A DNA stretch of 64,000 nucleotides, from NCBI GenBank assembly GCA_963848635.1, contig CAWKEA010000006.1, positions 4,419-68,418 of the forward strand. Direction: 5' to 3'. The stretch is from an uncultured bacterium (GTDB lineage Bacteria; Patescibacteriota; Minisyncoccia; Phycocordibacterales; PALSA-1337). Each line of letters begins with the position of its first letter. The stretch's first letter is position 1. Position numbers and translations under genes: made by a program. The notes beneath the pieces are model-generated. The model was not told the origin of the DNA, did not search any database, and worked only from the letters and a program-made list of their open reading frames with translations. This document shows positions 11,896 through 49,498 of the stretch, piece by piece.

Positions 11896-11973
11896 CATTA
11901 CAAAAGTCGCACAATGTCTTTTGTTGGCTATGGGTGTACAGGCTGTTGAGCTAGCTGATGAGATATGAAAATA

Positions 11974-34030: not shown

Positions 34031-34370
34031 CCAAATCCATTCACTACACAACACCTGCGATTACTTCAATGGTGTTTTTTATTCCTCTTATTTAACAACT
34101 CTGTCCGAGAACTCATATTTTACATAACCCTCCCCGGTAAGAATCAACAAAGCCTCGAACTCTTCGACAAAAGAAAAACCGCCCTAGTGAGCGGTTTTCT
34201 TAAATTTGTTACTTAACACAAGTTTGGTGACCCTAGTTGTCGACGGTTGGAAACAAATGATTAAGGAAATAACGACTTGGAGTAAGTTCAGAAACACAAG
34301 AGATGATAATGTACAATAAAAATTGACATATCTGCTAAATAATAATATATTAATAAAAATCAGTTCCTGG

Positions 34371-35443
34371 CACCTCAACCCCTCAATTTGAACGCTCAAT
34401 ATTTCGATTAAGACGCGCCGCTAGGCGCTGTTTTTGTCTCTTTTCTTTCTCGTATGCTTCATCCGGAGTGAGCGAATTCAATACTCCCATAAATCTCCTG
34501 TTCATCTTCTCCTCTAGCTTTTTGATGAATTCCCTGGAATATTTGGAGATGTCGGATCCTTTTGGAATATATCGCCGCAAACTTTTGTTCAGTTGCTCGA
34601 TTGAAGGCTTCTCCCAAGGGGAATGCTCGTGGCAGAAGTAGATCTTGATTGAGAGTACTTTCTCCAGTCTCTTGTGTTCCAGAAGAAGAAGGTCGTTGTC
34701 GAAAGTGATCGTTTGCATCTCCGGATATCGATTCTTCATGCGTACAAGTGCTCGCTCTACGTTTCTGACGGACACCGGCAAAATCTTTTCCAGGAGATTC
34801 TTTCTTACCTTCCTGTCTCGAAGCCCCAAGACCATTCCTTTTCCGGATTTCCCCGAGACTATGAAGTCTCCCTCGAAGTGACCTAATCCCCAACGCATGT
34901 TGATTTTCATGGGTCTTTTGTCGATCATGCGCTTGTCCTTCAAGCGTTTGCGGCTTCCTTTGCGTCTCTTTCTCTTTCCGAATATCTTCTTCCTGTGAGA
35001 TTCAATCTTTCTTCCGTACGGACTCCGGATATATCTTCTCACGGCCGAGCCGGAGACATACGGCAGGCCCTTCTCGACGTTCTTCAATCTTCTAGCGATT
35101 TCCTCCGGCTCCTGGTCGTCCATGAGATGATACTCGACGAACGCGCGGAGGTCCGGATTGGAGGCGATCTTCTTACCTTCCTTTCTCTTGGCTCTCATGC
35201 GTACGCGCGAGATGTGTCGAGCATATTCCGCGTCGTACTTCCTGCCTTTCCTGCGCTTCTGGAGTTCGTACCAGATACCGCTCTTGGGACGTTTGAAGGT
35301 CTTGGCTATGTCCGATATCGAATGACCTTTCTCTATGAGTATCTCGATGTCTCTGCGGTCCGCGCACGAAAATCGCGACCATTTTCTGTTTTTTTCATGT
35401 GCTAATCATACACGAATCGTTCAAATCTCAAAGACAAATCACC
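34371..35443 (-). mobile_element. IS30-family-like insertion sequence (diverged copy), inserted between the R promoter and the R-ORF start codon
   Basis: Present in R copy A and absent from the otherwise identical R copy B, which is the empty site. CCTGG is duplicated at the junctions. Imperfect terminal repeats contain ATTTGAACG. Confidence 0.8.
34383..35398 (-). CDS. IS30-family transposase (diverged), with the same ATG-A7/-1-frame architecture
   Basis: Same signatures as the other IS30 transposase (GDFIVSGKSG, TFDNDLLL, HSPWEKPSIEQLNKSLRRYIPKGSDIS), at roughly 45% identity by eye. The upstream in-frame HTH (DRRDIEILIEKGHSISDIAKTF) lies in the -1 frame relative to the ATG at 35398, which is followed by A7. 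Confidence 0.75.
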
Positions 35444-35451
35444 CCTGGGGA

Positions 35452-35784
35452 ATGAAAGGACCCCAATATATGGACCGTAAACAAAGAGAAAAGGAAATGC
35501 GTGAGATGTATCCGAAACAGTTCAACCATCCAGAAATAAGGCCGGGTGAAATCTGGCTGGGGGATCAGATCTTTGATTTGGCCATTGCACATCAAATGAT
35601 ATATTCGACAAATGGTTTGCCAAACACCAGGCTCGGGAATCCTTCGCTGAGGGAACGCGAGGGGTGCGGCGATTTCAAGTTTGACTATCGTCCCCTGTTT
35701 GCAGACCTGCAAGAAGTCCTGGCACTCGAAGAAAAGAGTGCTCAGGAAAAAAAGCAAGGACAAGAAATGCCTGGTTCAAGCTAG
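35452..35784 (+). CDS. hypothetical 110-aa protein encoded in repeat R (copy A)
   Basis: MKGPQYMDRKQREKEMREMYPKQFNHPEIRPGEIWLGDQIFDLAIAHQMIY...; identical to 40431..40763. Confidence 0.45.
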   Translation: MKGPQYMDRKQREKEMREMYPKQFNHPEIRPGEIWLGDQIFDLAIAHQMIYSTNGLPNTRLGNPSLREREGCGDFKFDYRPLFADLQEVLALEEKSAQEKKQGQEMPGSS

Positions 35785-36008
35785 AAGATCCACTCAGACA
35801 AAATTCAATATTTTCGACAGACATTGCTGTCTGTCGTTTTTTACCCATTTGTGACCCTATTTAAGGAAAATCTTGAATTTTTGAAGCTCTATCTGAACCA
35901 GGCTTTTTGACGGCGTAATCGCCTTGTGGACGTCGCTCTACAAATAATCTTTTTGGTTTACTCATATACTAGAAGCGTATCACCTAAAACAGATATTAAC
36001 AATGAAAA

Positions 36009-38285
36009 CTATTTTTCTTCTTTGGTTATCTCCTTCCAACTATCTTCAGCTATATCTAAATTTTTCTTAACTTGCTCATCTTTAGATTTTTTAAGGTTGG
36101 CAAGTCTCTTTCCTAATGGGTATTTTTCCAGATTTATCCACAACCATTTTCCCTTAACAGCATAATCAAGCCACTGAGCCTGTTGGATTGATTCGAGCTT
36201 TTCAATCTTGGCTATTAGGGCATCCATTAACTCATTCGCATAAGCCTGTGGTGGTGCAATTATTTGGAACGAGGCATCATTAATAATCTGCGGAAAATTA
36301 TCTACGAGTATTACCGTATGTTTTGGTAAAATTTTAGGCCAAACAATTTCAGGTGAGCCAAGCTTATTGGTTACAAGGAATTTGAGTGCTTGATTGAGAA
36401 TACTGAAATCCTGAGCCGCATCAATCTTTACAAGAATCCTCTCCTCAATATCGACTCTCTTCCATGGGGCATCTTTTTCATCTGACTTCAAAATGGCCCA
36501 TGAGGTAATCTCTTGATTCAGGGCACTGATTTCATCGAAGATTTTCGTTTTCAATAAATTATCTCCGTCTTTAACATAATTTTTGATGATTATATATCGA
36601 TTTTTTCTTGCCTCAACATTTGGATCTTGCACTAAGTTATCAATAAGTGATGTCTTAATAAGACCGATCTCTTCTTGGATTTTTTCTATCTTCAACTTGG
36701 AAAAACGATCGATCATTAAATTAAGGGCTTCAATTGAATTTCGCCCATAGTAATCCTTAAGCCAATTAGCAATAAAGTAACTCTTGAAGGACCCTGCATT
36801 TTCCATTTTGATTGAGTTGAATTGATCAAGATCAATCGATGAAAATTTTAGTTTAAAGAGACCAGAGACGGTATCATCATTAAAAGAATCTAACCACTGC
36901 CAAAAAATATTCAGGATCTCCATCTTGGGATTCGGTGCTATATTATTGAGAAAACTATAGTCAGTTGGGGCTAATTTTTCTGCAAAAATCTTATGAGTAG
37001 GAACTTCCGATGGAAGGTCAACCAAGGCCATTAACAATGTCTTTAGAAAGTTAACTTTTGTTGGTTCGGCTACAGAAGGTGCCAGTTGTGTTATAAAGCC
37101 TGTAACACCATCAGTTGCCCTTGTAGGTCCCATGGATGATAGATGAGCACGTACCTGGACGGGGTCTCCAGTTCTAATGGCTTCCATAAAGTCCTCGCTC
37201 GATGGTCCACGCTGATCACCAAAACTCGTATCTGCGGCGAGAGAAAGATAGGGTTGAAGATCGAGTACTTTAAGATTCGAACCATTATAGAAATGCGGCT
37301 CTTCATATATAAACCTTTTCAGAAAATTCTGTTGGCTAAAAGACAAATCAGCTTTATTTTTTTCAACTACTTCATTGATTTGCGACGTATCTTTTTTCTC
37401 TACAGCATACTCAAGAGTACGAAGAATCTCCGGATCAACTACTATCTTGTCAAAAAGGGGTGCGCATAATTCCTGGATCACAAGAATACGAACAACGAAT
37501 AGTGGATTCTTTAGCATTTCTTTGAAATATGCTGCTCTTTTTTGATCGGTGTCCTCGGACTTCTGTTTTACAATTTGAAATGTGAACAGTGTCGTATCTA
37601 TGAACCTAATTATTTGCCTAAAATTACTTTCAAAATATTTGCTCAGATAGTTTGAAAATTTTGTTTTCTGGGCATCGTCTGAAAAAAACTCTTGGAGAGC
37701 TTCCGTATGTTTACCGAATTCGCCAGTGATAAAAGCATCGATGTCTTTTTTGATTGGGAGAGGTAAACGCCAATAAACATTGAATATCTTTTTCAGAAAT
37801 CTCCTGCCCTCTTCTAATTGCTCTGGTAGAAGACTGTCAGGAAGTAAATCTCTTCCAAGATAACCTTCTAGAACTGTCTGATCGCCAGTTACCACAAAGG
37901 TGATTTCTTTTTTATCAAAAAAAGTCCTGAGATTATCTAGAACATCCCTTGCCATTCCCGGTGTTACTCGATCAAGATCATCAACAAAGATAATCACTTT
38001 TTTCTGTTTAGTGCGAAAATGATCCAGTCTCTTATTTAGAAGATCATCAAACCTGTCCATTGTAACAATCGCATGATCAGTCTTCTGCGTCACAGTAATA
38101 CTTTGAATCACAGCTAAAAAGATCGGGATAATCAAGGTCACAAAGAAAAATTTCCACTGTACTGAAAGATTGGTAACAAAATTAAATAGTGGGCCATAAG
38201 TAAAAATTAAACAAATAACCACTAAGAAAAAATACCAGCCAGGAGAATAACTCCCAGTTAAGGATATTTTTTGAGACATCGACAT
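36009..38285 (-). CDS. KAP-family P-loop NTPase, main body (TM helices plus Walker B DDLDR plus C-terminal region)
   Basis: N-terminal hydrophobic helices precede KKVIIFVDDLDRVTPGMARDVLDNLRTFF. This is the Walker B / DDLDR signature with the membrane insertion typical of KAP NTPases. The Walker A segment lies upstream in another frame (next feature). Confidence 0.6.
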   Translation of the reverse strand: MSMSQKISLTGSYSPGWYFFLVVICLIFTYGPLFNFVTNLSVQWKFFFVTLIIPIFLAVIQSITVTQKTDHAIVTMDRFDDLLNKRLDHFRTKQKKVIIFVDDLDRVTPGMARDVLDNLRTFFDKKEITFVVTGDQTVLEGYLGRDLLPDSLLPEQLEEGRRFLKKIFNVYWRLPLPIKKDIDAFITGEFGKHTEALQEFFSDDAQKTKFSNYLSKYFESNFRQIIRFIDTTLFTFQIVKQKSEDTDQKRAAYFKEMLKNPLFVVRILVIQELCAPLFDKIVVDPEILRTLEYAVEKKDTSQINEVVEKNKADLSFSQQNFLKRFIYEEPHFYNGSNLKVLDLQPYLSLAADTSFGDQRGPSSEDFMEAIRTGDPVQVRAHLSSMGPTRATDGVTGFITQLAPSVAEPTKVNFLKTLLMALVDLPSEVPTHKIFAEKLAPTDYSFLNNIAPNPKMEILNIFWQWLDSFNDDTVSGLFKLKFSSIDLDQFNSIKMENAGSFKSYFIANWLKDYYGRNSIEALNLMIDRFSKLKIEKIQEEIGLIKTSLIDNLVQDPNVEARKNRYIIIKNYVKDGDNLLKTKIFDEISALNQEITSWAILKSDEKDAPWKRVDIEERILVKIDAAQDFSILNQALKFLVTNKLGSPEIVWPKILPKHTVILVDNFPQIINDASFQIIAPPQAYANELMDALIAKIEKLESIQQAQWLDYAVKGKWLWINLEKYPLGKRLANLKKSKDEQVKKNLDIAEDSWKEITKEEK

Positions 38286-38529
38286 CTAATTTTTTTAGCT
38301 CATGCTGATTACTCAGACTATCTTCAATATTATCGCTATCAGTCTTACGATAGAGAATTCTTATGAAATTTCTTAAAAATGATATTCTATCTACAGAAAA
38401 TTTCCACGGGTTAATATCAAAAAATTCGAATGAAGGGTCAAGCTCCTTTAGATACTTCTTTAGATCATTTAGAAAATGGGTCTTGCCTTCACCCCATTTA
38501 CCAGATATGCCAAAAATAAATGAGCCATC
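38286..38529 (-). pseudogene. KAP NTPase N-terminal Walker A segment, out of frame with the main body
   Basis: The minus strand encodes ...FGISGKWGEGKTHFLNDLKKYLKEL..., a GxxGxGKT P-loop. ATG at 38529 is in the +1 frame relative to it; a T5 to T6 change would fuse them as MAHLFFGISGKWGEGKT. A second 1-nt shift separates it from the ORF starting at 38285. Confidence 0.5.
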
Positions 38530-38691
38530 TTCCTTTTGATGTCTTCAAGCTAAGGTCTTTCCGATCTCTTTTATAAATGGGGTTCGATTATCCACAGAAC
38601 ATAATTTAACCAAAAAAATTATGTTCTGTCTATCTTATCAACTAAAATATTTCTTACTTCCTAACCGAAGAAAGTACAGTCCCATATACGG

Positions 38692-39438
38692 TCATGATAC
38701 ACCAGAAATTTCTAAAGAGCTTATAATCCTCCCCTCCTTTTCATGATCTAGTTTATAAGGAATCGAATCCTCTTCAAAACCAAACATCCTATAAATCGGC
38801 TGTATTATTTCATAAGTGATCTTTCCAAGAGCGGCGCGGTCATCTTTGAATTGAGTTGTGTCAAAAGAGAGAGTAAACTCATTTTCGCCCCCTTTCCAAT
38901 ATGCTTTACGAGTATTAATTTTCATAGGTCTTATATCTCCATTGACTAAATAATGCTTATCTTTTTGTAACCCAGCAAAACCTACCAGACATTCGACTGT
39001 GGGCCCTGGATTCTTGATATCTTTTAGAACCCTATTGAAAGCTATGACTGTATTAAAAGTAAACTCGATAAGGGCAAGCGGGTGTATCCGTGATTGATTT
39101 GTCTCAGCCAAAGCCTCTCCGGCACCCCAACAGAGAAAGTTTGAGATGAGTGCTCCTTGGACGATCAGAGTGCCATTATCTTTCACCTGGATCCTCTTGA
39201 AGTTATTTTCCGACTCGATACCGTGCAGATTGATTTGATAGCCGCCAGGCATTTCAAGATCCCATCCATGATGACGCAAGCGAAACGCTTTCTCGAAATC
39301 AGACTTCAAGCTGCCTGGTTCGTTTGAGAATAGCGTCTTCACAATATTAGAGTTAGAGCCTTGAGCGGCTTTTACAGAAAAGACCATGTAATAGAATGGT
39401 TCTGGAAAGACTGTTCCTTTTAGAGGTAGCGTACTCAT
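38692..39438 (-). CDS. hypothetical protein (248 aa), middle gene of the putative defence-like operon
   Basis: Intact ORF; no motif recognised. Confidence 0.55.
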   Translation of the reverse strand: MSTLPLKGTVFPEPFYYMVFSVKAAQGSNSNIVKTLFSNEPGSLKSDFEKAFRLRHHGWDLEMPGGYQINLHGIESENNFKRIQVKDNGTLIVQGALISNFLCWGAGEALAETNQSRIHPLALIEFTFNTVIAFNRVLKDIKNPGPTVECLVGFAGLQKDKHYLVNGDIRPMKINTRKAYWKGGENEFTLSFDTTQFKDDRAALGKITYEIIQPIYRMFGFEEDSIPYKLDHEKEGRIISSLEISGVS

Positions 39439-39483
39439 AAATATTTTTTGTAGTCCTTTATGTTACCGAATCTATCATACTCT

Positions 39484-40095
39484 TCAAATATCTTTTTCGT
39501 AGACTGGCCTGTCTGCTCTGATCAGCACGTCCAACTTGCCGTCCATTGAAACAAGGTGACTTTCGTAGTGCTGGCCTCGCCGGAGAGTTTCGTGGATCTG
39601 CTCGATGTGTGTGGCAGTGCCATGCTCCCCCGTCCTTGAATAATAGGCGAGATAGTCCAAGTTGTCTCTGCTGAGTTTCACCAGATATGGTCTGTCTCCG
39701 AGATCTTGGGGTATTTCGATATACAGCACATCTTTGCCATCTAAAATGCCGTATCGAATGTCGAATCTGACCTTGGGGTATACGTGATTTTCCAGATGCT
39801 GAGTGATTGTTTGTAAGTTTATTTTTGCCTTGTCAACACCCACCACATGATCAATTATTTTGTGAGGGCTGTTAGGCGCAGGTGTCTCAGCAATGCCAAC
39901 TATGATAAAGCCACCTCGTCCGTTCGCAAAGGCGCTGACATCCTTGCATAGTTCCCTCTGCTCTTTTTCAGAGCCGAGATCGTATAGCCGCTCTTTTACA
40001 TCAAGAATGGCGTTCTCGAGCTTTCCTTTGACGACCGAAAAATCTCCGGACTTGAGCATTTTCTGAAGATCATTGTATGTGTAGGAGTGTTCCAT
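39484..40095 (-). CDS. AlbA_2 / Schlafen-like ATP-dependent DNA-binding domain protein
   Basis: The segment VVKGKLENAILDVKERLYDLGSEKEQRELCKDVSAFANGRGGFIIVGIAE matches the AlbA_2 pattern (E..K......AFaN..GG.i.iGv.d). Confidence 0.55.
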   Translation of the reverse strand: MEHSYTYNDLQKMLKSGDFSVVKGKLENAILDVKERLYDLGSEKEQRELCKDVSAFANGRGGFIIVGIAETPAPNSPHKIIDHVVGVDKAKINLQTITQHLENHVYPKVRFDIRYGILDGKDVLYIEIPQDLGDRPYLVKLSRDNLDYLAYYSRTGEHGTATHIEQIHETLRRGQHYESHLVSMDGKLDVLIRADRPVYEKDI

Positions 40096-40283
40096 AATTT
40101 CATTTTGGACACTATTTTACCACACTTTTTTGTCTTTTTAACCTAAAATTGGGCCGACACAGCCGATCTAGAAAACGGCTCTAAACCGTTGTTCCAGAAT
40201 CCTCAGTTCGAGACCCGGAAGGGTGCTCGATTACCGGGCAAAAAATTTGGCTTAAAATAAGGGCAACTGAGTCGGCCTTGAGT

Positions 40284-40864
40284 GTGACCCTAGTTGTCGA
40301 CGGTTGGAAACAAATGATTAAGGAAATAACGACTTGGAGTAAGTTCAGAAACACAAGAGATGATAATGTACAATAAAAATTGACATATCTGCTAAATAAT
40401 AATATATTAATAAAAATCAGTTCCTGGGGAATGAAAGGACCCCAATATATGGACCGTAAACAAAGAGAAAAGGAAATGCGTGAGATGTATCCGAAACAGT
40501 TCAACCATCCAGAAATAAGGCCGGGTGAAATCTGGCTGGGGGATCAGATCTTTGATTTGGCCATTGCACATCAAATGATATATTCGACAAATGGTTTGCC
40601 AAACACCAGGCTCGGGAATCCTTCGCTGAGGGAACGCGAGGGGTGCGGCGATTTCAAGTTTGACTATCGTCCCCTGTTTGCAGACCTGCAAGAAGTCCTG
40701 GCACTCGAAGAAAAGAGTGCTCAGGAAAAAAAGCAAGGACAAGAAATGCCTGGTTCAAGCTAGAAGATCCACTCAGACAAAATTCAATATTTTCGACAGA
40801 CATTGCTGTCTGTCGTTTTTTACCCATTTGTGACCCTATTTAAGGAAAATCTTGAATTTTTGAA
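40284..40864 (+). repeat. 581-bp direct repeat R, copy B (uninterrupted; empty site for the IS30-like insertion)
   Basis: Identical to copy A minus the IS. It begins TGTGACCCTAGTTGTCGACGGTTGGAAAC and contains the promoter at 40380..40408 (TTGACA-N17-TATATT). Confidence 0.85.
40431..40763 (+). CDS. hypothetical 110-aa protein encoded in repeat R (copy B)
   Basis: Identical to 35452..35784. ATG lies 23 nt after the -10 element. Confidence 0.45.
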   Translation: MKGPQYMDRKQREKEMREMYPKQFNHPEIRPGEIWLGDQIFDLAIAHQMIYSTNGLPNTRLGNPSLREREGCGDFKFDYRPLFADLQEVLALEEKSAQEKKQGQEMPGSS

Positions 40865-40926
40865 TGAAACATTTGGAAACGCAAAGCTAGAGTCTCAACA
40901 TCCTAGAAAGGATTAACAAGTTGGCA

Positions 40927-41475
40927 CTAATTCAAAACGACACGTAATTTCGGCCACTTTTTTAGCCAATTCTTACTTTTAACTCTAGTATAAAAAATCC
41001 CAAGGTTTTCTCTATGACTAGGACTAGGTCTGACTATCAAATTAACAAGGTCGCTAATTCCGTGTGGTGCAATTATTTTAGGCTCTCCGTCTACCAGGGT
41101 TACTGCCACACAAGTAGGTGTTTCTACCCACTCTGATAGTGCATCAGATGTATTTTTATATGGCATTTTTCTGCTATGCCACTTGTGGGTATATGATTGA
41201 TTCACGATTTCCCAACTTAATCCCAGTACACCTTTCATTTTGCCTGAAAGCTTCTTGTCAGATTCTTCTGTGTTTTTTTCATCAAAATAAACCAGATCAA
41301 TATCATTGGTGTCGGCTATTTCTCTTTTTATATTGTGAAGCTTGTCCCAGACTTTATTCCTTAAAAAACCTGCTCCGATCATCCAGTCTGGCAAGTTAAG
41401 CTTGTCTGCTTCATAAAGGACATTCATCATCCACCTGTCTTCTTTAATCATTAGAATCAAATCAATTTCATTCAT
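40927..41475 (-). CDS. nucleotidyltransferase-fold protein (NTP_transf_6/DUF925-like)
   Basis: MIGAGFLRNKVWDKLH...TNDIDLVYFD has a GxGxxRN...DIDLVYFD pattern characteristic of that minimal nucleotidyltransferase family. Confidence 0.5.
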   Translation of the reverse strand: MNEIDLILMIKEDRWMMNVLYEADKLNLPDWMIGAGFLRNKVWDKLHNIKREIADTNDIDLVYFDEKNTEESDKKLSGKMKGVLGLSWEIVNQSYTHKWHSRKMPYKNTSDALSEWVETPTCVAVTLVDGEPKIIAPHGISDLVNLIVRPSPSHRENLGIFYTRVKSKNWLKKWPKLRVVLN

Positions 41476-41548
41476 ATTTAAAGTATAACAGAATTCTGAA
41501 CACCAGTGAGGTATACTGAAAAAACAATATTGTTAGCCTGGAAAAACC

Positions 41549-41620
41549 TGTGACCCTAATTAGAGCTGATTGGAACTAGTTGATCAAGGAGATGATACTT
41601 TGGCAAGAGTTTAGGGCTCG
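41549..41620 (+). repeat. third copy (diverged, ~65%) of the R 5'-end motif TGTGACCCTA...GGAACTAGTTGAT...
   Basis: ctgtgaccctaattagagctgattggaactagttgatcaaggagatgatactttggcaag aligns with the first ~70 nt of R. Confidence 0.5.
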
Positions 41621-41624
41621 GTTG

Positions 41625-42140
41625 TTAAATAACTCTTATAATCCCATTATCCGCATCTACTTCAATTTGATCTCCTGTCGTAAGGATTTTAGAGGCAAAT
41701 TTAGTGCTTATTATGCAGGGCTTGTTCATCTCTCGAGCAACAATAGCCGCATGACATGTGATACCGCCTTCATCTGTGATAAACGCTATCGCATCAGAAA
41801 AATAGGCGGCTAATTCAGGACGTGTCATGGGGGTTACAAGAATATAATTTTTCTCATCGCCCAAGACTTTTTTCGCGCTCGGATAATCCTCCTCTGACAA
41901 AACAACAACTCGACCGGATGCTTTGCCTTTATGAGCGGTCTTACCCTTGATAAAGCCCAGTTTTCTAGCCTCCTCAATATTTTCTATTTCCCTATCCTGC
42001 TGGTGTAAAAAATCAGCAATCGGTCTAACTAAATCATCGGTCAAAATAGAAAGTTTGTTATCGATCAGGACAAAGGCTACGGGACGGTTTTTAATTGCAA
42101 ATTTAATAACCGATTGATTGCCTTTGAGCAACTCGACCAA
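41625..42140 (-). pseudogene. 3' fragment of a PEP-utilizing enzyme (mobile phosphohistidine domain only)
   Basis: GGITCHAAIVAREMNKPCI is the PEP-utilizers signature. The N-terminal ATP-grasp / PPDK_N part is absent. The fragment abuts the R-end-like motif. Confidence 0.6.
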
Positions 42141-42580
42141 TTCCCCAAAAGCGTATCAATCAGCTGGAACTCAATGAACGCCGAAAGAAGAAGATACGCG
42201 AAGACTTGGCCTATCTGAACGCCAATAGGCTCTCGCTCCTCAAAACGGGCGCGTATACGCCGGAAAAGCTCGTATCTGAGGAAACTAACCTCAACATCGA
42301 ACTCACTGTTCTGTGCGAAACGGAGATGACCTCCGATGCCTCTATGAGAGAGACAATCAAAGAAGTAGTAAAACTTTCCGAACTCATCAAAAACCTATTG
42401 CCTCATTACTCGTTTGCCAAACCTGAACAGAAAGACAGAATGATACGAATTATTTTTTCCGAACTTACCTTGTCCGAAAATACGTTGCAATATAAGTGTA
42501 AAAAAGGATTTGAAGCCCTTTCTAGTCGTTTCATTGCCTCTTGTGACCCAAGTGGTCAACGGTTGGAAACACATAGGTGA
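42128..42580 (+). CDS. hypothetical ORF (probable gene fragment; no ATG, TTG at 42206)
   Basis: The open frame begins right after a stop at 42125-42127. It runs through the fourth copy of the TGTGACCC motif (42542..42600), which supplies its C-terminus. Coiled-coil-like (LELNERRKKKIREDLAYLNANRL). Confidence 0.3.
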   Translation, partial: ATRPIPQKRINQLELNERRKKKIREDLAYLNANRLSLLKTGAYTPEKLVSEETNLNIELTVLCETEMTSDASMRETIKEVVKLSELIKNLLPHYSFAKPEQKDRMIRIIFSELTLSENTLQYKCKKGFEALSSRFIASCDPSGQRLETHR

Positions 42581-42600
42581 GGAGATAAGACATTTTCAGC
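42542..42600 (+). repeat. fourth copy (~75%) of the R 5'-end motif
   Basis: tgtgacccaagtggtcaacggttggaaacacataggtgaggagataagac. Confidence 0.5.
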
Positions 42601-42611
42601 TATTCATCACA

Positions 42612-42650
42612 TAGAAAAAGCTCTGCAAAACTTTCGAAATGCAGAGCCTT
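42612..42650 (+). terminator. hairpin terminator
   Basis: GCTCTGCAaaactttcgaaaTGCAGAGC followed by CTTCTTTG. Confidence 0.45.
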
Positions 42651-42871
42651 CTTTGAAGATACGATAGCGACTATAGGAGCGCGAAGCAATGCGAACGGGA
42701 GCGTAAGGCGCGCGGCAATACCCTGTAGAAGCGGACATGCTCGCGCTTCCATTGGTTATTAAGCACCACGGACATTATCCGCGACCGTGTACGGCTTGGC
42801 TCGCCACAAAATTATCATCACCATTTCTTGCTCAAACTCTGCTCAACAAATTTCTAATATTCATCAAAAAA

Positions 42872-42905
42872 AAGGGTACGATTTTACTCGTACCCTTGAG
42901 GGGAG
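42872..42905 (-). terminator. rho-independent terminator for the small minus-strand gene
   Basis: Minus strand: GGGTACGagtaaaatCGTACCC followed by TTTTTTTT. Confidence 0.55.
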
Positions 42906-42925
42906 CTTGGAGACTTTTGCCGCCC

Positions 42926-43108
42926 TTACTGATTTCGGCGAAAAAATCTCTTAATCCTGCCGATAAGGCGATCCAAGGCATCAGGATTTTCGGCTGCTTT
43001 CCGGCGTTGCTCTTGTTCTTGCTCAATCAAGGCGTTATATGCCTCGGGATGCCTCCGAGCCAAAGCACCTCTCTCATACTCTTGTTGATCTAAGGGGTGA
43101 GTAAACAT
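42926..43108 (-). CDS. small charged helical protein (60 aa)
   Basis: The ORF is followed by a strong terminator. It sits at the head of the aaRS-paralog cluster but is divergently oriented. Confidence 0.35.
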   Translation of the reverse strand: MFTHPLDQQEYERGALARRHPEAYNALIEQEQEQRRKAAENPDALDRLIGRIKRFFRRNQ

Positions 43109-43201
43109 ATCAATCCCTCCTTTCTGAAAAGAATCTTAACACACATTTGCCGAGTATCACAATAGATTTTATTTGATGTCATTTAGCAGTATAATGGTAT
43201 T

Positions 43202-44320
43202 ATGATCGACAAATTTTTTGAAGACGAATTAAAGCTTGCAACAGATGATGCGAATGTGTTTACTTCGCTCAATAGTCAACATATTCTTCGACCACCTTCA
43301 TACGATCCGAATAGATATATTGATGATTTGGTCAACAATAAATATTTTGCTGCCCTTACAATTTTAAGACACCACATTAAGCGCGCGAGTGACGAATATT
43401 GGTCAGGTGTCGGGGCAAAAAATATTGATTTGTTCATGATGACACCCAGCGCATCTTCCCCTATGGGGCCTGGATCTGATTCTGAAGTCATAACTATTCA
43501 ATTTGGAGATAACAAGACCAATCTTACCGACTCATCTCAATTCGGATTTGAGCCACTTATGTTTCATTTTGATAAAGTTTACTGCTACCTTCCATCAATG
43601 CGTGGAGAAAATCCGGATGCAAGACACCTCAATCAATTTTTTCATTGCGAAGCAGAAATTGTTGGTACTCTAGAAGTTTTACTACCAATCGTTGAGGGCT
43701 ATGTGCGCGCCCTTTCTCAAATACTGATTGCCCTCACACCAATAGTTAAGCTTATGAGTATTGACTTTGATAAGACAAATTCTACATTACAATCTATTAT
43801 TTCTTCAAATTCTTTTCAGAGAAAAACTTTTGATGAGGTGTATCCCTGGCTGCAACAAAATCCATCTTTTTACACGAAGAATGATTTTGGCAGAAATATC
43901 ACAAATTCCGGAGAGATAGCACTTGCGGAACATAATGGTGAAGGATTACCTATGTGGCTATGCTCTTATGACAGAGATATTGTGCCATTTTATCAAAAAC
44001 CAAATCCTGCTGATCCAAACATAGTTATTAACGCGGACTTATTATTTAATCCGATCGTTAAAGGAGGTTTTGGCGGCGAAATCGTTGGTTCTGGACAGCG
44101 TCAAAACATACCCGAGGAAATAGTTGAATCCATGGGTAGACAACAGGTTGGGATTGAGCCATACGAGTGGTACATAAACTTGCGCAAGTATCCACATTAC
44201 AAAATTACGTCAGGATTCGGACTTGGTATCGAGCGTTTTATAGCCTGGGCACTTGGATATCCAGATATTAAAGATGTAATTCATTATCCACGACTTAAAA
44301 ATATTAAAACATTACCTTAA
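43202..44320 (+). CDS. class II aminoacyl-tRNA synthetase catalytic-core paralog, AsnA/AsnRS-AspRS-like (no anticodon-binding domain)
   Basis: PSMRGENPDARHLNQFFHCEAEI is a class IIb motif 2 (compare AspRS [20 protein letters not shown]). ESMGRQQ...EPYEWYINLRKYPHYKITSGFGLGIERFIAWALG contains motif 3 GLGIER and parallels E. coli AsnA SSMGIRVD...GGGIGQSRL. 372 aa is catalytic-domain size. Confidence 0.7.
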   Translation: MIDKFFEDELKLATDDANVFTSLNSQHILRPPSYDPNRYIDDLVNNKYFAALTILRHHIKRASDEYWSGVGAKNIDLFMMTPSASSPMGPGSDSEVITIQFGDNKTNLTDSSQFGFEPLMFHFDKVYCYLPSMRGENPDARHLNQFFHCEAEIVGTLEVLLPIVEGYVRALSQILIALTPIVKLMSIDFDKTNSTLQSIISSNSFQRKTFDEVYPWLQQNPSFYTKNDFGRNITNSGEIALAEHNGEGLPMWLCSYDRDIVPFYQKPNPADPNIVINADLLFNPIVKGGFGGEIVGSGQRQNIPEEIVESMGRQQVGIEPYEWYINLRKYPHYKITSGFGLGIERFIAWALGYPDIKDVIHYPRLKNIKTLP

Positions 44321-44337
44321 TATGAAAAAAGAAATAT

Positions 44338-45167
44338 TTGACTCATTTTTTAATCCCTACTCAAAAAACGGTTGACGATGTCGCTACTGTGAGTGCGTTT
44401 TGGAGATTATCAGACGAGATTATTACAAAAATAATTCAACAGGAAATTGCACCGTACTGCACGAATGAATCGTTGATAATGGATGCTGGCGGAGGGACTG
44501 GTCGTTGGGCAGTAAAGTTAAGTAAATTCTTGAAAGGTAAAATTGTGGTCTTTGATCGTTCAAAGGATATGCTCGCCAAGGCGCGGGAAAATATCGAACA
44601 TGGAGGTGCTTCTGACCGAATCAATATTGTTGAGGGAGATTTAACAAACATTGAGCATTTCAAGAATGAAAGCGTTGATCATATTGTAAGTATCTACAGT
44701 CCCCTGAGTTTTATCTACGAACAAACAAAGGCAGCCCAAGAAATGCTTCGTATTTTGAAGCCGGGTGGTCGAATACTTATTATGAGTCATGGGCATTTCA
44801 ACGCAATAGCATCAAAAATAAACAACTACAAAGCTAGTTTGAAAGAGCTGAAAAATCTTTTGGATACACGAATGGTCAAATGGGCACCGCCATGTCCCCA
44901 GAACTAGTAACTCATTCTAAAGAATCCATTGAGAAACTATTTTCGGGTGTCGGCTTTCAAATTATCAAAACATACGGTGTTCCTGTGTTTGTTCAACCCG
45001 GAAACGAAGACTTTGATCCAAACAATAGAAAGAAGAGTGGGATAAGTGAATACATAGAGGATACTGATAATTTTGCATCAATACTCGAGCTCGAAATGAA
45101 GTATAACTCTTTAGACGCGGTTGCTAATCGCGGCATGAATATTTTTATGTTAGCCGAGAAGAAATAA
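44338..45167 (+). CDS. class I SAM-dependent methyltransferase, frameshifted in an A5 run (~44851-44855)
   Basis: Motif I MDAGGGTGRWAVKL; post-II ILKPGGRILIMSHG. The C-terminal part continues in the -1 frame (44880..45167); one extra A in GCTGAAAAATC joins the two. Confidence 0.7.
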
Positions 45168-45171
45168 TCCT

Positions 45172-46068
45172 ATGAAAATATCAACACTTACACAAAAATA
45201 TCCATGGCTTAAACATGAGAATTCCATAGAAGAATATTTACCACCGGAATACTATAAACAACTACTTCGCCAATATACATTTAATGGAGCTTCTGATCTT
45301 CAATTACTTGAAAATTTCCTAAAAAATAAAACAGCTTCAAATATCTTAGAACTTGGTTGTGGAAGTGGTAGAGCCTCAAACATTGCCGTCTCTCTTATCC
45401 CGCGAGCTGCATACACTTTTTCTGATTTAAGTGAACGCATGCTTGATACCGCGAAGAAACACTTACCTCCCAAATCATCTTTTGTTATAGCTGACGCTAT
45501 TGAATTTATGGAGAGGACAAATGAGCAATATGATTTAATATATACACTTTGGAGCTTCTCACATTCTACTCATCAACATATACATCGTCTGGGGATAGAA
45601 AATGCGAGACATTACATCTCTTCAGTAATTAAAAAATTCGTTAAGGAAAATATAAGACCCGGTGGCTCATTCTTCTTGATTCATTTTGATTCACTTTCTG
45701 ATGAGCAACGTATTCTTATGTCCCAGTGGAAACGTATATTTCCGGCATTTACAAACACCGAACAGCAGAGTCCTTCAAAACAAATTATCGATCATGTCCT
45801 GTTAGATCTCGATAACAATGATACGATAACTCTGTCTATTGATCATATGCATGGTGATCCTATTGTCTATGCAACAGAAAATGATATGCTGGAAACATTC
45901 ATGAATTTTCATTTAGAGACTTACTTTAATACCTCGCCTGCTGTTGCTGATATCGTAGAGGATATTAGGTCTCAGGCTGAAAGATATCGGAACATAGACG
46001 CTTCGTATGCAATCACTCCCGGATGCTATATGTATTCATTTATTAAAAATCAACAGACAAAGTTATGA
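45172..46068 (+). CDS. class I SAM-dependent methyltransferase
   Basis: ILELGCGSGRAS (motif I) and DLIYTLWSFSH. Confidence 0.75.
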   Translation: MKISTLTQKYPWLKHENSIEEYLPPEYYKQLLRQYTFNGASDLQLLENFLKNKTASNILELGCGSGRASNIAVSLIPRAAYTFSDLSERMLDTAKKHLPPKSSFVIADAIEFMERTNEQYDLIYTLWSFSHSTHQHIHRLGIENARHYISSVIKKFVKENIRPGGSFFLIHFDSLSDEQRILMSQWKRIFPAFTNTEQQSPSKQIIDHVLLDLDNNDTITLSIDHMHGDPIVYATENDMLETFMNFHLETYFNTSPAVADIVEDIRSQAERYRNIDASYAITPGCYMYSFIKNQQTKL

Positions 46069-47105
46069 AAAATATGGAGAAACTGAAAAAATTACAAAAA
46101 AGAGATAAAGTCGCGGTACTCTCACCGTCATTTGCAGCACCTGGACGATTTCCTCACGTATTTGAGCTTGGTTTGAATCGTATACGCAGAGTGTTTGAAT
46201 TGGAGCCAGTGGAATATCCCACGACGAGGAAATTAGGCGCCAGTGCTGAGGAGCGAACACGCGACCTTATAGCCGCCTTCGAGGATCCGGAAATAAAAGC
46301 GGTCATTGCTAGTATTGGTGGAGATGACCAAGTTACATACATATACAAAATGTCTCCAGATCCATTTGTAAATAATCCGAAACCATTCCTTGGATACAGC
46401 GATAATTCACATTTCTGTAATTTTCTATTTCAACATAACATTCCATCATATTATGGAGCATGCGTAATGACGCAGTTTGCAATGCAAAAAGAAATGGATA
46501 AATATACAACGGATCATATCCGCAACGCGCTATTTGATACGGGTGAACATGAAATCTTACCTTCATCAGAATACAATGAGGTAGGTCTCGATTGGAGCGA
46601 TTCTTCACTTCTTACTACCCGACGCATCTATGAACCAAATACCGGATGGGTATGGGATACACCATCTGATGGAGAAGGTATTTTATGGGGTGGTTGTCTC
46701 GAATCAATTGATGACATGCTCCGAAACAACGTCCCAATTCCTAATCTTGATGAATTCGGGAACATCATCCTTTTATTCGAGACATCAGAAGAAGTGCCAT
46801 CGCATGGGTATGTGCAACGAGTTATCCGATCTCTAGGTGAACGAGGAATTTTGCAGAAAATTCGAGGTGTGCTTGTTGGTCGACCAAAAGCCTGGGAATT
46901 TGATAAACCATTCACCAAAGAAGAACGAACAGCGTATGTGAAGAGTCAACAAGAAGTCATCCTTGAAGCAGTGAGATTGTATAACAAAAACATACCAATC
47001 GTACAAAACATGAATTTTGGTCATACCGACCCACAGATACCGATGCCATATGGAGGGAGAGCAAGAATCGACTCAAATAATAAGAAAGTATTTGTCTGTT
47101 TTTAG
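46065..47105 (+). CDS. peptidase S66 family LD-carboxypeptidase (LdcA/MccF-like)
   Basis: VAVLSPSFA...AVIASIGGDD...GYSDNSHF (nucleophile Ser in GYSD) and the overall 346-aa size fit S66. Overlaps the upstream methyltransferase gene by 4 nt. Confidence 0.8.
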   Translation: MKNMEKLKKLQKRDKVAVLSPSFAAPGRFPHVFELGLNRIRRVFELEPVEYPTTRKLGASAEERTRDLIAAFEDPEIKAVIASIGGDDQVTYIYKMSPDPFVNNPKPFLGYSDNSHFCNFLFQHNIPSYYGACVMTQFAMQKEMDKYTTDHIRNALFDTGEHEILPSSEYNEVGLDWSDSSLLTTRRIYEPNTGWVWDTPSDGEGILWGGCLESIDDMLRNNVPIPNLDEFGNIILLFETSEEVPSHGYVQRVIRSLGERGILQKIRGVLVGRPKAWEFDKPFTKEERTAYVKSQQEVILEAVRLYNKNIPIVQNMNFGHTDPQIPMPYGGRARIDSNNKKVFVCF

Positions 47106-47107
47106 AA

Positions 47108-47140
47108 AAAAAGGCCGGAGGATTTTCAAATCCTCCGGCC
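47108..47140. terminator. bidirectional hairpin terminator between convergent genes
   Basis: AAAAAGGCCGGAGGATTTtcaAATCCTCCGGCCTC. Confidence 0.6.
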
Positions 47141-48298
47141 TCAGCAATCACTGTCGTGGAATAGTTTTTGCATTAGTTCCGAACCTATTCCAGAGGTAAC
47201 CATCGCTTCACGCCTATTGCCAAGCAGTTTTGCGGTCCAATCGACAGCACCACCATCCGCAACCTGAACCACATCACCTTTTTTATTTGTGGCAAAGATA
47301 TGGAAGCATAGGTGCGGATAATAACCCAGGCCCGCTTTTCTATTGAAGTCAAAGCAAAATCGGACTCCCGAGTTAGCAGTGCGAAGCGGCTCTATGATTC
47401 CTTTCTCGATGTGTGAAAAGTACTTGACTCGATTAATGAGACCGTTATTCTCGAACATTGCTTGATTCAGCTCACTCGCGCCTTCAACCTCTTTTGGAAA
47501 TTGCACCTGGTACTTCGTAAACAGATCGAAGTCGTCGTTGAGAGAATTTCGCAAGATATCTTCGCGAGGAAGTTTAATCCCGTCTATCAACTGATCAAGG
47601 AACTGCATATCGGAAATCTTGACAGTTATATTAGACGATCCGTATCCCTCTCTTTGCAGAACGAAGATCGCGTTTAACAACATTGCAATGTGTTTCTGTA
47701 ACGTAGGAATTGCAAACCCACCATCGGTAGACGTGTTTGGTCCACCAGAGCAAAGTGCGAAGAGGTTAAAATGTTGCATATACCCCTTACTCTTGTCGAA
47801 CGGCTGCAATCGCAGAACACGACCTGATGTGCTGATGTGTACAGCACTGTCATCTTTTAGAGCAATGCTTCGTTTTCTCCTCAACGCGCATTCGAGCGCG
47901 AGCTGGCTTGTTAAATCACTCACAACCTCCAATCCTCGTATCGAGGAAAGAGTGTTGTTTTGACTAATCATGCTCAGTATTGCGTTGAGTCCAAAAGGCG
48001 CGACAGGAGAAGTTTGGACGGCTTCAAATGTCGAACTTACAGCCTCGTGGCATTTGAGAGCAAACCTGTAGAGATTAGCTTGGGCAATCTGGCTAATCCC
48101 GAGGAACTCTTGCTTTCTTTCATACTCCTGCAGTAGCTCTGTGGGCTTTCTGGCTTTCGCCCGATTTTTGAACACATGCACCAAAACAGGTTGAAGACGA
48201 CGCATTGGTGCTATTGACAGAATCTCAAGGAGGTTGGGAATGCCAAGCTCCTCGGAGATGCTTCGTAGCATTTTTTCTTCCGAACTCTCGGGTTTCAT
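47141..48298 (-). CDS. HisRS/HisZ-like class II aaRS catalytic-core paralog
   Basis: SGRVLRLQPFDKSKGYMQHFNLF parallels HisRS motif 2 (FRYERPQKGRYRQFHQFG). DGGAVDWTAKLLGNRREAMVTSGIGSELM parallels the GGRYDGL...PAVGFAMGLERL region. 385 aa, about the size of HisZ; no anticodon-binding domain. Confidence 0.5.
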   Translation of the reverse strand: MKPESSEEKMLRSISEELGIPNLLEILSIAPMRRLQPVLVHVFKNRAKARKPTELLQEYERKQEFLGISQIAQANLYRFALKCHEAVSSTFEAVQTSPVAPFGLNAILSMISQNNTLSSIRGLEVVSDLTSQLALECALRRKRSIALKDDSAVHISTSGRVLRLQPFDKSKGYMQHFNLFALCSGGPNTSTDGGFAIPTLQKHIAMLLNAIFVLQREGYGSSNITVKISDMQFLDQLIDGIKLPREDILRNSLNDDFDLFTKYQVQFPKEVEGASELNQAMFENNGLINRVKYFSHIEKGIIEPLRTANSGVRFCFDFNRKAGLGYYPHLCFHIFATNKKGDVVQVADGGAVDWTAKLLGNRREAMVTSGIGSELMQKLFHDSDC

Positions 48299-48343
48299 TT
48301 TGACCTCCTATTTGTTTTGTTAAGGAACGGCTTCAAGACCACC

Positions 48344-49440: not shown

Positions 49441-49498
49441 CCTTGAAACTGAGTATATCTATAGCACAAATACATCTTTTTGTACAGAGTCAGATGGG

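What the first reader, a model, noticed from the sequence alone, without database searches (positions are those of the whole stretch)
34227..42600. Recurrent TGTGACCC...GGTTGGAAAC junction motif marks cassette boundaries and truncated genes
A roughly 60-70-nt sequence (TGTGACCCTAGTTGTCGACGGTTGGAAACAAATGATTAAGGAAATAACGACTTGGAG) starts both R copies. It recurs in diverged form, always on the plus strand, at 41549 and 42542. A shorter TGTGACCCT occurs again near each R end (35851, 40830). The 41549 copy abuts a 3' fragment of a PEP-utilizing enzyme gene. The 42542 copy supplies the last codons of an ORF with no proper start. So six sites partition 34.2-42.6 kb into cassette-like units. The pattern looks like the conserved end of an uncharacterised mobile or recombination element: it begins 5'-TG as many DDE transposon ends do, and no inverted partner was found. 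An attC-like site of a cassette array is another possibility. It does not match any end sequence I can name.
Basis: seen in the sequence. Interest (0 to 1): 0.55.

Follow-up and report, generated by a model that had tools for sequence, protein, structure and literature searches.

The report
Decayed integration-site scars beside tRNA-Glu
The repeated TGTGACCC motif is the end of a tRNA-Glu gene copied each time a small mobile element inserted there, so it marks the joints of a decayed pile-up of such elements in a candidate-phyla-radiation bacterium: a familiar kind of genomic island, with an unusual recombinase.

Summary
Four same-strand copies of a roughly 55-nt motif (34226, 40283, 41549, 42542) and two short TGTGACCCT copies (35850, 40829) far exceed chance.

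The core GTGACCC(T)A is the reverse complement of the 3' acceptor end of tRNA-Glu. An intact tRNA-Glu(CTC) lies at 50528-50602 on the minus strand, at the edge of a low-GC island (about 32-50.5 kb).

The startless ORF ending in the 42542 copy is the last ~140 residues of a large serine recombinase (LSR). Full-length relatives (~575-590 aa) occur mainly in Patescibacteria. They sit at the right end of 6-10 kb elements with primase genes, and they read antisense into tRNA-Glu, always in the same register. The opposite end of those elements carries GTGACC plus an arm. Joined to the recombinase, that arm restores an in-frame C-terminal tail in 4 of 4 cases.

I therefore read the window's motifs as att-type junctions, meaning element left ends, in a decayed and IS-riddled tandem array. 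They are not DDE transposon ends or attC sites.

The main caveat is that the window's arm shows no detectable similarity to the relatives' arm. Calling it a serine-recombinase site rests on position, a sharp left boundary, and one outside copy.

I rate it a new member of a known kind, of moderate interest.

The parts
34226..34282 (+). Motif copy A: core GGTGACCCTA plus arm. It is the leftmost junction of the array and the start of R copy 1.
34227..35885 (+). R copy 1 (581 bp of R plus the insertion). It contains a promoter-like site, an orphan 104-aa ORF and a terminator.
   Evidence: the ORF has no homologues
34371..35443 (-). IS30-family insertion sequence interrupting R copy 1, flanked by a CCTGG duplication (34366-34370 and 35444-35448).
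   Evidence: NCBIfam NF033563, E 2e-46
35833..35859 (+). R1-end site. About 17 nt resemble the recombinase 3' end (P-arm-like, 76% to 42525-42549), followed by core TGTGACCCTA.
   Evidence: (D7)
35886..40282 (-). Unit X between the R copies. It carries a KAP-family NTPase (36009-38285, N-terminus disrupted), a 248-aa unknown ORF (38692-39438) and a Schlafen/AlbA_2 protein (39484-40095).
40283..40339 (+). Motif copy B, identical to A except for its first base.
40284..40864 (+). R copy 2, uninterrupted. It has a promoter-like TTGACA-17-TATATT at 40380-40408, the orphan ORF at 40449-40763, and a terminator at 40794-40815.
40812..40889 (+). R2-end site: P-arm-like sequence, core TGTGACCCTA (40829-40838), then the 51-nt Q repeat (40839-40889).
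40927..41475 (-). Nucleotidyltransferase gene (NTP_transf_6), the only gene in the 720-bp unit.
41549..41615 (+). Motif copy C, a diverged variant. The same variant occurs after ftsI in a related organism (L022/L023).
41625..42140 (-). 3' fragment of a PEP-utilizing enzyme gene.
42149..42580 (+). Remnant of a large serine recombinase gene, covering residues ~430-567 of ~580. Its last codons lie in motif copy D.
42542..42600 (+). Motif copy D: recombinase 3' end (P arm), then core, then arm. This is an attP-like or tandem-junction arrangement.
42601..50527 (.). The last low-GC unit, about 8 kb. It holds an AsnA/AsnRS-like gene, two methyltransferases, an LdcA-like gene, a 385-aa unknown ORF, an IS30-family IS (48344-49440), an IS1595-family IS (49500-50343), and a Q repeat copy (50428-50478).
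50528..50602 (-). Intact tRNA-Glu(CTC). Its 3' end reads GGTGACCTTA on the + strand. It is the presumed integration target that anchors the island, followed by murF, ftsI and the mraZ cluster.

Best explanation
The motif is an attachment-site junction. It has a short core (GTGACC, extended to GTGACCCTA) copied from the 3' acceptor end of tRNA-Glu, followed by the conserved left-end arm of an integrated element.

The region from about 34.2 kb (possibly 32 kb) to the tRNA-Glu(CTC) gene at 50.5 kb is a genomic island. It was built by repeated integration of small elements at that tRNA, then worn down by deletion, IS insertion and local rearrangement.

The elements of this lineage are moved by a large serine recombinase. 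Its gene sits at the right end of the element and reads across the attachment site.
- In the integrated state the gene ends inside the antisense tRNA.
- In the excised or tandem-junction state it ends in the arm carried by the element's left end.

Copy D (42542) is such a junction: recombinase remnant, core, arm. Copies A, B and C are left ends whose upstream partners are unrelated sequence. R, bounded by a motif on the left and a P-arm-like sequence plus core on the right, is a gene-poor derivative present twice at 100% identity. It is comparable to a cis-mobilizable element.

Shown:
- the identity of the core with the tRNA end;
- the recombinase remnant;
- the element architecture in relatives;
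- the island's composition and synteny break.

Inferred:
- that the window's particular arm is a recombinase-binding P' arm;
- that the array grew by site-specific accretion;
- that R was mobilized recently.
For: 1. Core equals tRNA end. In L002 the recombinase 3' end reads ...TGTGACCCTACGGGGAGTCGAACCCC, and ARAGORN calls tRNA-Glu(CTC) on the opposite strand starting at that GTGACC.

2. Recombinase next to tRNA-Glu. In 11 of 17 genome loci holding a relative, a minus-strand tRNA-Glu (CTC or TTC) begins 11 nt after the conserved ...SRF. One further locus has tRNA-Ala.

3. Recombinase identity. The ORF at 42149-42580 matches residues 430-567 of ~580-aa proteins (tblastn). A full-length relative carries Resolvase (PF00239) and Recombinase (PF07508) domains.

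4. Two tail classes. C-termini of homologues diverge exactly after ...CDP, which is TGTGACCC. One class continues (G)WLSEL plus about 20 aa. The other is antisense-tRNA translation such as TGNRTPI....

5. Left ends carry the tail. Left ends of the relatives' elements carry GTGACC plus the WLSEL-coding arm. Joining right-end and left-end arms at GTGACC restores an in-frame tail in 4 of 4 elements of 6.4-10.1 kb.

6. Arrays and remnants recur. L008 and L010 have a recombinase-remnant/core/arm junction upstream of a complete element. L004 has two arms 1.7 kb apart. L003, L004 and L018 keep only 3' recombinase fragments.

7. Island signals in the window.
   - GC is 34-46% across 32-51 kb, against 47-58% in the flanks.
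   - Synteny with L002 and L010 starts at the tRNA-Glu, murF, ftsI cluster.

8. Boundary behaviour. The left edge is sharp at GTGACCC with unrelated left flanks, and similarity fades over about 55-75 nt to the right.

9. Outside copy. A variant identical to copy C over its first 27 nt, with similarity fading by about 70 nt, lies in L022/L023 with different flanks on both sides.

10. Precedents.
   - Dehalococcoides has tandem islands bounded by repeats of the 3' end of ssrA and moved by a serine recombinase (PMC3146451).
   - Tycheposon islands contain partial tRNAs and fragmented integrases (10.1101/2020.12.28.424599).
Against: - The window's arm shows no significant similarity to the relatives' WLSEL-coding arm. 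A profile of the relatives' arms does not hit any motif copy, and shuffle z-scores are below 2. It is also not similar to the tRNA-Glu body. Calling it a P' arm therefore rests on position only.
- The shared core is short: 6 nt across all loci, and 9-10 nt within the window.
- Only copy D has a recombinase-type left arm. The left flanks of B and C are unrelated to it, which simple tandem accretion does not predict.
- The junction next to the tRNA (50510-50535) has no recombinase arm.
- The window's own tRNA reads GTGACCTTA, not GTGACCCTA.
- No intact recombinase of this family lies in the 64 kb.
- In L022/L023 the motif follows ftsI, with no tRNA within 3.6 kb.
- Serine integrases are not known to recombine attP with attR, so the way the arrays form is unexplained.
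- A dyad-symmetry scan gave no clear centre.
Confidence: 0.68

Rival explanations
1. The motif is a free-standing short repeat of about 55-70 nt. It could be a miniature non-autonomous element, a protein-binding or regulatory module, or a short coding segment. On this view it only happens to begin with a sequence resembling the tRNA-Glu end and is unrelated to serine-recombinase integration.
For: - The conserved module is short, and both its flanks differ between copies and between the window and L022/L023.
- The arm is not similar to the relatives' arm.
- Read in the second frame, the copies give a partly conserved peptide, VTL(V/I)xxxW(K/N)Q(M/I)IKE (my reading).
- In L022/L023 no tRNA is nearby.
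Against: - Every copy lies on one strand inside a single tRNA-anchored low-GC island.
- One copy is fused in register to the recombinase 3' end at the exact position where relatives switch tails.
- The right boundary is gradual rather than discrete.
- There are no terminal repeats or target duplications.
- Only one locus outside this genome was found in the metagenome scan.
- No RNA structure or Rfam match was found.
- The second-frame ORF has stops in copy C.
Confidence: 0.12
2. The copies are leftovers of ordinary local duplications, through homologous recombination or replication slippage in an IS-rich region, with no site-specific recombination involved.
For: - R is duplicated at 100% identity, and the identity runs 26 nt past the right-hand core. 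That fits homologous recombination better than precise site-specific insertion.
- The region holds four IS elements or IS remnants.
Against: - Copies C and D share only the motif with A/B, and their divergence (70-81%) is far older than the R duplication.
- All left boundaries fall at the same base.
- The core equals the integration target of the recombinase family whose remnant abuts copy D.
- The same variant exists in another organism.
Confidence: 0.12
3. The sites are attC-like sites of an integron-type cassette array, or the ends of a DDE transposon.
For: The units are short, each is bounded by a same-strand repeat, and the motif starts with TG.
Against: - None of the island ORFs scanned with Pfam matched a tyrosine recombinase.
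- The predicted fold is negligible, with no attC-type imperfect palindrome.
- Genes in the units are mostly on the opposite strand, and some are fragments.
- No inverted copy of the motif exists, and no target duplications flank it.
- The IS elements present have their own, different ends.
Confidence: 0.03

Closest known systems
Dehalococcoides ssrA-specific genomic islands (ssrA-GIs; McMurdie et al. 2011, PMC3146451)
   Same: - Multiple tandem islands lie downstream of a small stable-RNA gene.
- Each is bounded by a same-orientation direct repeat of that gene's 3' end, with extra conserved sequence beside the repeat.
- The integrase is a roughly 540-aa serine recombinase.
- Many islands lack the integration module and were proposed to be cis-mobilizable or fixed remnants.
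   Different: - The target here is tRNA-Glu, not tmRNA.
- The repeat is 6-10 nt rather than 20 bp.
- The recombinase gene sits at the target-proximal end and overlaps the target gene antisense. In Dehalococcoides it sits in a six-gene module at the far end.
- No second small serine recombinase was seen.
- The host is a Patescibacteria (CPR) bacterium.
Tycheposons and tRNA-adjacent islands of Prochlorococcus (10.1101/2020.12.28.424599)
   Same: - Small integrative elements carry primase, helicase or polymerase genes plus a site-specific integrase.
- Successive integrations at one tRNA push older elements inwards.
- Partial tRNA copies and fragmented integrases are scattered through the island.
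   Different: - Most tycheposons use tyrosine recombinases, and their repeats are longer partial tRNAs.
- Here the enzyme is a large serine recombinase, and only the last few bases of the tRNA are repeated.
ICE/CIME accretion in streptococci (Pavlovic et al. 2004, as cited in PMC3146451 and PMC5704250)
   Same: - Tandem arrays have internal att sites.
- Some units lack recombination genes but keep att sites at both ends. R looks like such a unit.
   Different: - Those systems use tyrosine integrases and conjugative elements.
- Mobility of R is not shown here.
Myxophage Mx8 integrase (attP inside int; PMC6070905) and SSV-type archaeal integrases
   Same: The attachment site lies inside the integrase coding sequence, so integration gives the integrase gene a new 3' end and a different C-terminus. 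SSV-type integrases are recalled from memory and were not checked in a paper here.
   Different: - Those are tyrosine recombinases.
- In the relatives found here only the last 25-30 residues of a serine recombinase are exchanged, for about 17 residues of antisense tRNA.
- The functional consequence is untested.

Membership tests
Large serine recombinase (serine integrase) element | The recombinase has an N-terminal resolvase catalytic domain plus a recombinase domain and a long C-terminal region. | tested here: met
   Relative L006:6449-8173 has PF00239 and PF07508. Relatives are ~575-590 aa. The window's own copy keeps only residues ~430-567, so it is a dead remnant.
Large serine recombinase (serine integrase) element | The integrated element is flanked by hybrid sites (attL, attR) that share a short core with the target. 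Joining them reconstitutes attP. | tested here: met
   Met in relatives. GTGACC occurs at both ends of the elements in L006, L008, L010 and L011, and the join restores an in-frame recombinase tail in 4 of 4. In the window it is met only by analogy, for copy D.
Large serine recombinase (serine integrase) element | att sites of 40-50 bp with imperfect dyad symmetry around a central dinucleotide. | tested here: inconclusive
   The symmetry scan of seven attP-like sites and of copy D gave no clear centre.
Large serine recombinase (serine integrase) element | The window's motif arm is homologous to the family's P' arm. | tested here: not met
   An nhmmer profile of 10 canonical arms does not hit any motif copy. 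Shuffle z-scores are below 2.
Large serine recombinase (serine integrase) element | Recombination activity on these sites. | not testable with these tools
   This needs in vitro or in vivo assays, or read-level junction data.
tRNA-anchored tandem genomic island (accretion array) | An intact tRNA gene at one edge of the island. | tested here: met
   tRNA-Glu(CTC) at 50528-50602, Rfam 61.3 bits.
tRNA-anchored tandem genomic island (accretion array) | Same-orientation direct repeats of the tRNA 3' end partition the island. | tested here: met
   Six cores of GTGACCC(T/A)A lie on the + strand. They equal the reverse complement of the tRNA-Glu 3' end as seen in L002, L012 and L016. The repeat is short, and the resident tRNA reads GTGACCTTA.
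tRNA-anchored tandem genomic island (accretion array) | Compositional and synteny break relative to the host backbone. | tested here: met
   GC profile. Synteny with L002 and L010 covers only the tRNA, murF, ftsI side. The left edge could not be fixed.
tRNA-anchored tandem genomic island (accretion array) | Presence/absence of units among strains. | not testable with these tools
   Only this assembly and one 3.5-kb contig carry the sequence. Look-ups of flanking proteins found nothing.
Integron attC cassette array | An integron integrase and attC sites with a foldable imperfect palindrome. | tested here: not met
   No tyrosine recombinase in the ORFs scanned. The consensus fold is -3.0 or -0.45 kcal/mol.
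DDE transposon / insertion sequence end | Terminal inverted repeats and target-site duplication around a transposase gene. | tested here: not met
   All motif copies are on one strand, with no inverted partner. The IS30, IS1595 and IS66 elements in the region have their own ends.

The most novel reading that the evidence does not exclude
Patescibacteria carry a previously undescribed lineage of small replicative integrative elements. Their large serine recombinase gene spans its own attachment site and overlaps tRNA-Glu antisense. Integration would then swap the enzyme's last 25-30 residues (the WLSEL tail) for about 17 residues read from the tRNA, acting as a built-in switch between integration-competent and resident forms. 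In the window, the diverged motif arm and the two 100%-identical copies of R would be functional sites of a sub-lineage that is still mobilized in trans. R would be a cis-mobilizable mini-element, not dead scars.
Probability: 0.2. Interest if true: 0.6.

Novelty: new member of a known kind. Interest (0 to 1): 0.4.

Why it matters
Mobile elements of candidate-phyla-radiation bacteria are poorly charted, and none of the recombinase's relatives appear in the viral contig collection searched. This result explains an otherwise puzzling repeat. It defines the tRNA-Glu locus as a hot spot for gene gain in these small genomes. The cargo here includes a KAP/QatA-like NTPase, a Schlafen-type protein, a nucleotidyltransferase, an AsnA-like enzyme and methyltransferases.

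It also points to a family of serine recombinases with a defined, conserved natural target (the tRNA-Glu 3' end) and an attachment site inside their own gene. If the tail swap regulates activity, it would be the serine-recombinase counterpart of the Mx8 intP/intX switch. It would also supply new site-specific integrases with a known target.

Tried and rejected
- **Arm versus the relatives' arm.** I tested whether the motif arm is homologous to the relatives' WLSEL-coding arm. The nhmmer profile gave no hit at any motif copy, and anchored global alignments with shuffles gave z below 2.
- **Arm as a decayed tRNA-Glu 3' half.** Shuffle z-scores were below 1.
- **Dyad-symmetry scan for the crossover centre.** It was uninformative.
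- **RNA element.** The consensus folds are negligible on both strands. Rfam gave nothing relevant at gathering or E-value thresholds.
- **R's 104-aa ORF.** It has no homologue in 5.8 billion proteins apart from itself, nor in the related loci.
- **Viral contig collection.** No relatives of the recombinase were found.
- **Alignment A1.** It was too diverse for the locus search, so I trimmed it to A2.
- **Extending L022.** Using its neighbouring ORF yielded only a 3.6-kb contig. More distant homologues of that ORF sit in ordinary host contexts without the motif.
- **Strain comparison.** Exact-protein look-ups of two flanking ORFs found nothing.
- **The minus-strand TGTGACCCT at 9031.** It has no arm and no related context, so I treat it as chance.
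- **The TGG before copy A.** I first read it as an encoded CCA marking a host-side arm. I dropped this because a recombinase-side arm in L021 also reads TGGTGACC.
Full report
**1. Checking the observation**

The motif is present as described.
- The 29-mer from the start of R matches at 34226 (first base G instead of T), 40283 and 42542. All are on the + strand, with none expected in shuffles.
- The repeat finder adds 41549 at 70% identity over 47 nt.
- Exact TGTGACCCT occurs five times against 0.18 expected: 35850, 40283, 40829 and 41549 on the + strand, plus 9031 on the minus strand. The 9031 hit has no arm and no related context, so I treat it as chance.

R is a true repeat. R copy 2 spans 40284-40864 (581 bp). 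R copy 1 spans 34227-35885 and is identical except for a 1073-bp insertion at 34371-35443 flanked by a CCTGG duplication. The insertion encodes an IS30-family transposase (NF033563, E 2e-46).

**2. What the ORF at copy D is**

The startless ORF that ends in the 42542 copy translates to ...KRINQLELNERRKKKIREDLAYL...SRFIASCDPSGQRLETHR*.
- A search of 5.8 billion proteins found 27 relatives. Two are named site-specific DNA recombinase by their source, and one has a precomputed Recombinase domain (PF07508).
- A genome scan with a trimmed alignment gave 17 loci. Most are from Patescibacteria: Adlerbacteria, Minisyncoccia, Saccharibacteria and Staskawiczbacteria.
- In those loci the gene is about 575-590 aa. 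One relative scanned against Pfam (L006) has Resolvase and Recombinase domains.
- The family is therefore a large serine recombinase. The window retains only residues ~430-567, and no other copy lies in the 64 kb.

**3. What the core is**

The homologues' C-termini diverge exactly after ...CDP, which is encoded by TGTGACCC. One class continues (G)WLSEL followed by about 20 residues. The other continues TGNRTPI..., GSRTP... or similar, which is what an antisense tRNA T-arm encodes.

The DNA confirms this.
- In L002 the gene ends ...TGTGACCCTACGGGGAGTCGAACCCC..., and ARAGORN places tRNA-Glu(CTC) on the opposite strand beginning at that GTGACC.
- In 11 of the 17 genome loci a minus-strand tRNA-Glu (CTC or TTC) begins 11 nt after the conserved SRF. 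One locus has tRNA-Ala.

GTGACCC(T)A is therefore the reverse complement of the acceptor 3' end of tRNA-Glu.

The window has its own tRNA-Glu(CTC) at 50528-50602 on the minus strand. It is followed by murF, ftsI and the mraZ cluster. This is the same host context as in L002 and L010, where a complete element with its recombinase abuts the tRNA.

**4. Architecture of the elements in relatives**

- The recombinase gene is the last gene of a 6.4-10.1 kb element. These elements carry a Prim-Pol/PriCT primase (L008) or a DnaG-type zinc ribbon plus an AAA_25 helicase-like gene (L002).
- The opposite (left) end carries GTGACC followed by TGGCTTTCCGAACT..., which is the WLSEL-coding arm.
- Joining the right-end arm to the left-end arm at GTGACC restores an in-frame tail of about 30 residues in all four testable elements: L006, L008, L010 and L011.
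- The attachment site of the free element therefore lies inside the recombinase gene, and integration exchanges the protein's tail.
- Arrays and debris are common. L008 and L010 have a short recombinase remnant plus core plus arm upstream of a complete element. L004 has two arms 1.7 kb apart. L003, L004 and L018 keep only 3' recombinase fragments, truncated at different residues between about 425 and 460.
- No relatives were found in the viral contig collection.

**5. Reading the window in that light**

GC content is 34-46% from 32 to 51 kb, against 47-58% on either side. Within this island the cores lie at 34227, 35851, 40284, 40830, 41550 and 42543. The tRNA's own core is at 50530. The intervals between them are 1624, 4433, 546, 720, 993 and about 7990 bp.

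- **Copy D** has the recombinase 3' end on its left and the arm on its right. This is the arrangement seen at tandem junctions in L008 and L010.
- **Copies A, B and C** have the arm on the right and unrelated sequence on the left.
- **The short sites at the ends of R** are preceded by about 17 nt that resemble the recombinase 3' end (76%, family D7). R therefore has a left-end arm and a trace of a right-end arm with very little between: a promoter-like TTGACA-17-TATATT, an orphan 104-aa ORF and a terminator.

The boundary behaviour fits an element end. Every copy starts at the same base, and similarity to the right fades over about 55-75 nt.

A metagenome scan with a degenerate pattern found one outside locus (L022, and the same sequence in L023). 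There a copy-C-type motif directly follows ftsI of a related organism and supplies its stop codon. Both flanks are unrelated to the window's.

**6. Cautions**

- The arm of the window's motif is not detectably related to the canonical WLSEL arm or to the tRNA body. That it is a recombinase-binding arm is an inference from position.
- The core is short.
- The left flanks of B and C are not recombinase-like, which plain tandem accretion does not predict.
- The junction at the resident tRNA has no recombinase arm. The resident tRNA reads GTGACCTTA rather than GTGACCCTA, so the repeated cores came from the incoming elements or from an earlier tRNA allele.
- Two IS elements sit just left of the tRNA and may have removed the last recombinase gene: IS30-family at 48344-49440 and IS1595-family at 49500-50343.
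- The identity between the R copies runs 26 nt beyond the right-hand core. The R-X-R structure is therefore explained as well by homologous (Campbell-type) recombination of a circle carrying R plus X as by site-specific insertion.
- Serine integrases are not known to use attR as a target. Tandem junctions may instead arise from homologous recombination within the shared recombinase gene, or from integration of multimers. I could not test this.
- No RNA structure or Rfam family accounts for the motif.

**7. Comparison with what is known**

- The closest described system is the Dehalococcoides set of ssrA genomic islands. These are tandem islands bounded by a direct repeat of the 3' end of ssrA, with further conserved bases beside it. 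They have a ~540-aa serine recombinase, and many islands lack integration genes and were suggested to be cis-mobilizable or fixed (PMC3146451).
- Prochlorococcus tycheposon islands show the same accumulation of partial tRNAs and fragmented integrases next to a tRNA (10.1101/2020.12.28.424599).
- An attachment site inside the integrase gene, giving a new 3' end on integration, is known for the tyrosine integrase of myxophage Mx8 (PMC6070905).
- I found no paper describing serine-recombinase elements at tRNA-Glu or in Patescibacteria. That is only absence from the searched library.

**8. Verdict**

The finding is real and is explained. The motifs are attachment-site junctions of a decayed tandem array of integrative elements anchored at tRNA-Glu.

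In the window the system is dead or nearly so: a recombinase remnant, gene fragments and four IS elements or remnants. The kind is known, so the window's feature is a new member of it. The moderately novel part lies in the relatives: a serine recombinase that spans its own attachment site and overlaps tRNA-Glu. That deserves a dedicated survey.

Noticed in passing
window 11974-13070 and 48344-49440; also 34371-35443: An IS30-family insertion sequence is present in two 100%-identical 1097-bp copies, one inside the island and one in a second low-GC stretch. A third copy, 59% identical, interrupts R copy 1.
   Followed up: partly
window 49500-50343: An IS1595-family element with 23-nt terminal inverted repeats and a TCAGATGG(G) target duplication lies 185 nt from the tRNA-Glu 3' end.
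   Followed up: partly
window 32163-33362: A 1.2-kb IS66-family remnant has perfect 29-nt terminal inverted repeats and a split, shortened transposase. It sits at the GC drop that may mark the island's left edge.
   Followed up: no
window 40839-40889 and 50428-50478; first 26 nt also at 35860-35885: A 51-nt repeat (Q, 92% identical) follows the core at the end of R copy 2 and recurs 49 nt from the tRNA-Glu 3' end without a core. It contains TTTGGAAAC, reminiscent of the motif's GGTTGGAAAC. Its meaning is unexplained.
   Followed up: partly
window 8000-13000: A second low-GC stretch (34-38%) holds a 558-aa ORF (9069-10745) with no Pfam or PADLOC match, plus the IS30-family copy. It may be another island.
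   Followed up: no
window 36009-38540 (minus strand): A KAP-family P-loop NTPase gives weak matches to QatA, PifA and PDC-S20 defence models. Its N-terminal P-loop part seems cut off by a frameshift. It sits beside a Schlafen/AlbA_2 protein and a 248-aa unknown ORF. This looks like degraded defence-type cargo.
   Followed up: partly
window 43202-44320: A 372-aa class II aminoacyl-tRNA-synthetase-core protein resembles AsnA or the AsnRS catalytic domain, well below the family cut-offs. It is carried inside the island next to two methyltransferases and an LdcA-like peptidase.
   Followed up: no
L022 (minus strand) 1059 / L023 1677: In a related organism the motif's TGA is the stop codon of ftsI. 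That protein runs 14 residues past the point where the window's ftsI protein ends. The motif's orientation relative to ftsI is opposite to that in the window.
   Followed up: partly
window 42374-42390 and 42456-42518: TTTCCGAACT, the DNA that encodes the tail's LSEL in relatives, also occurs twice inside the recombinase remnant, encoding KLSEL and IFSEL. The exchangeable tail therefore repeats an internal (L/F)SEL motif.
   Followed up: no
L003, L004, L008, L018 and window 42149: Across unrelated loci the recombinase survives as a 3' fragment, starting between residues ~425 and ~460 or shorter, next to the att core. This suggests the core-proximal end is preferentially retained.
   Followed up: partly
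L015 (Acidobacteriota MAG) and L019 (Formivibrio MAG): Full-length relatives with the WLSEL tail and no adjacent tRNA occur on contigs binned to non-Patescibacteria genomes. These could be free elements, mis-binned contigs, or a wider host range.
   Followed up: no
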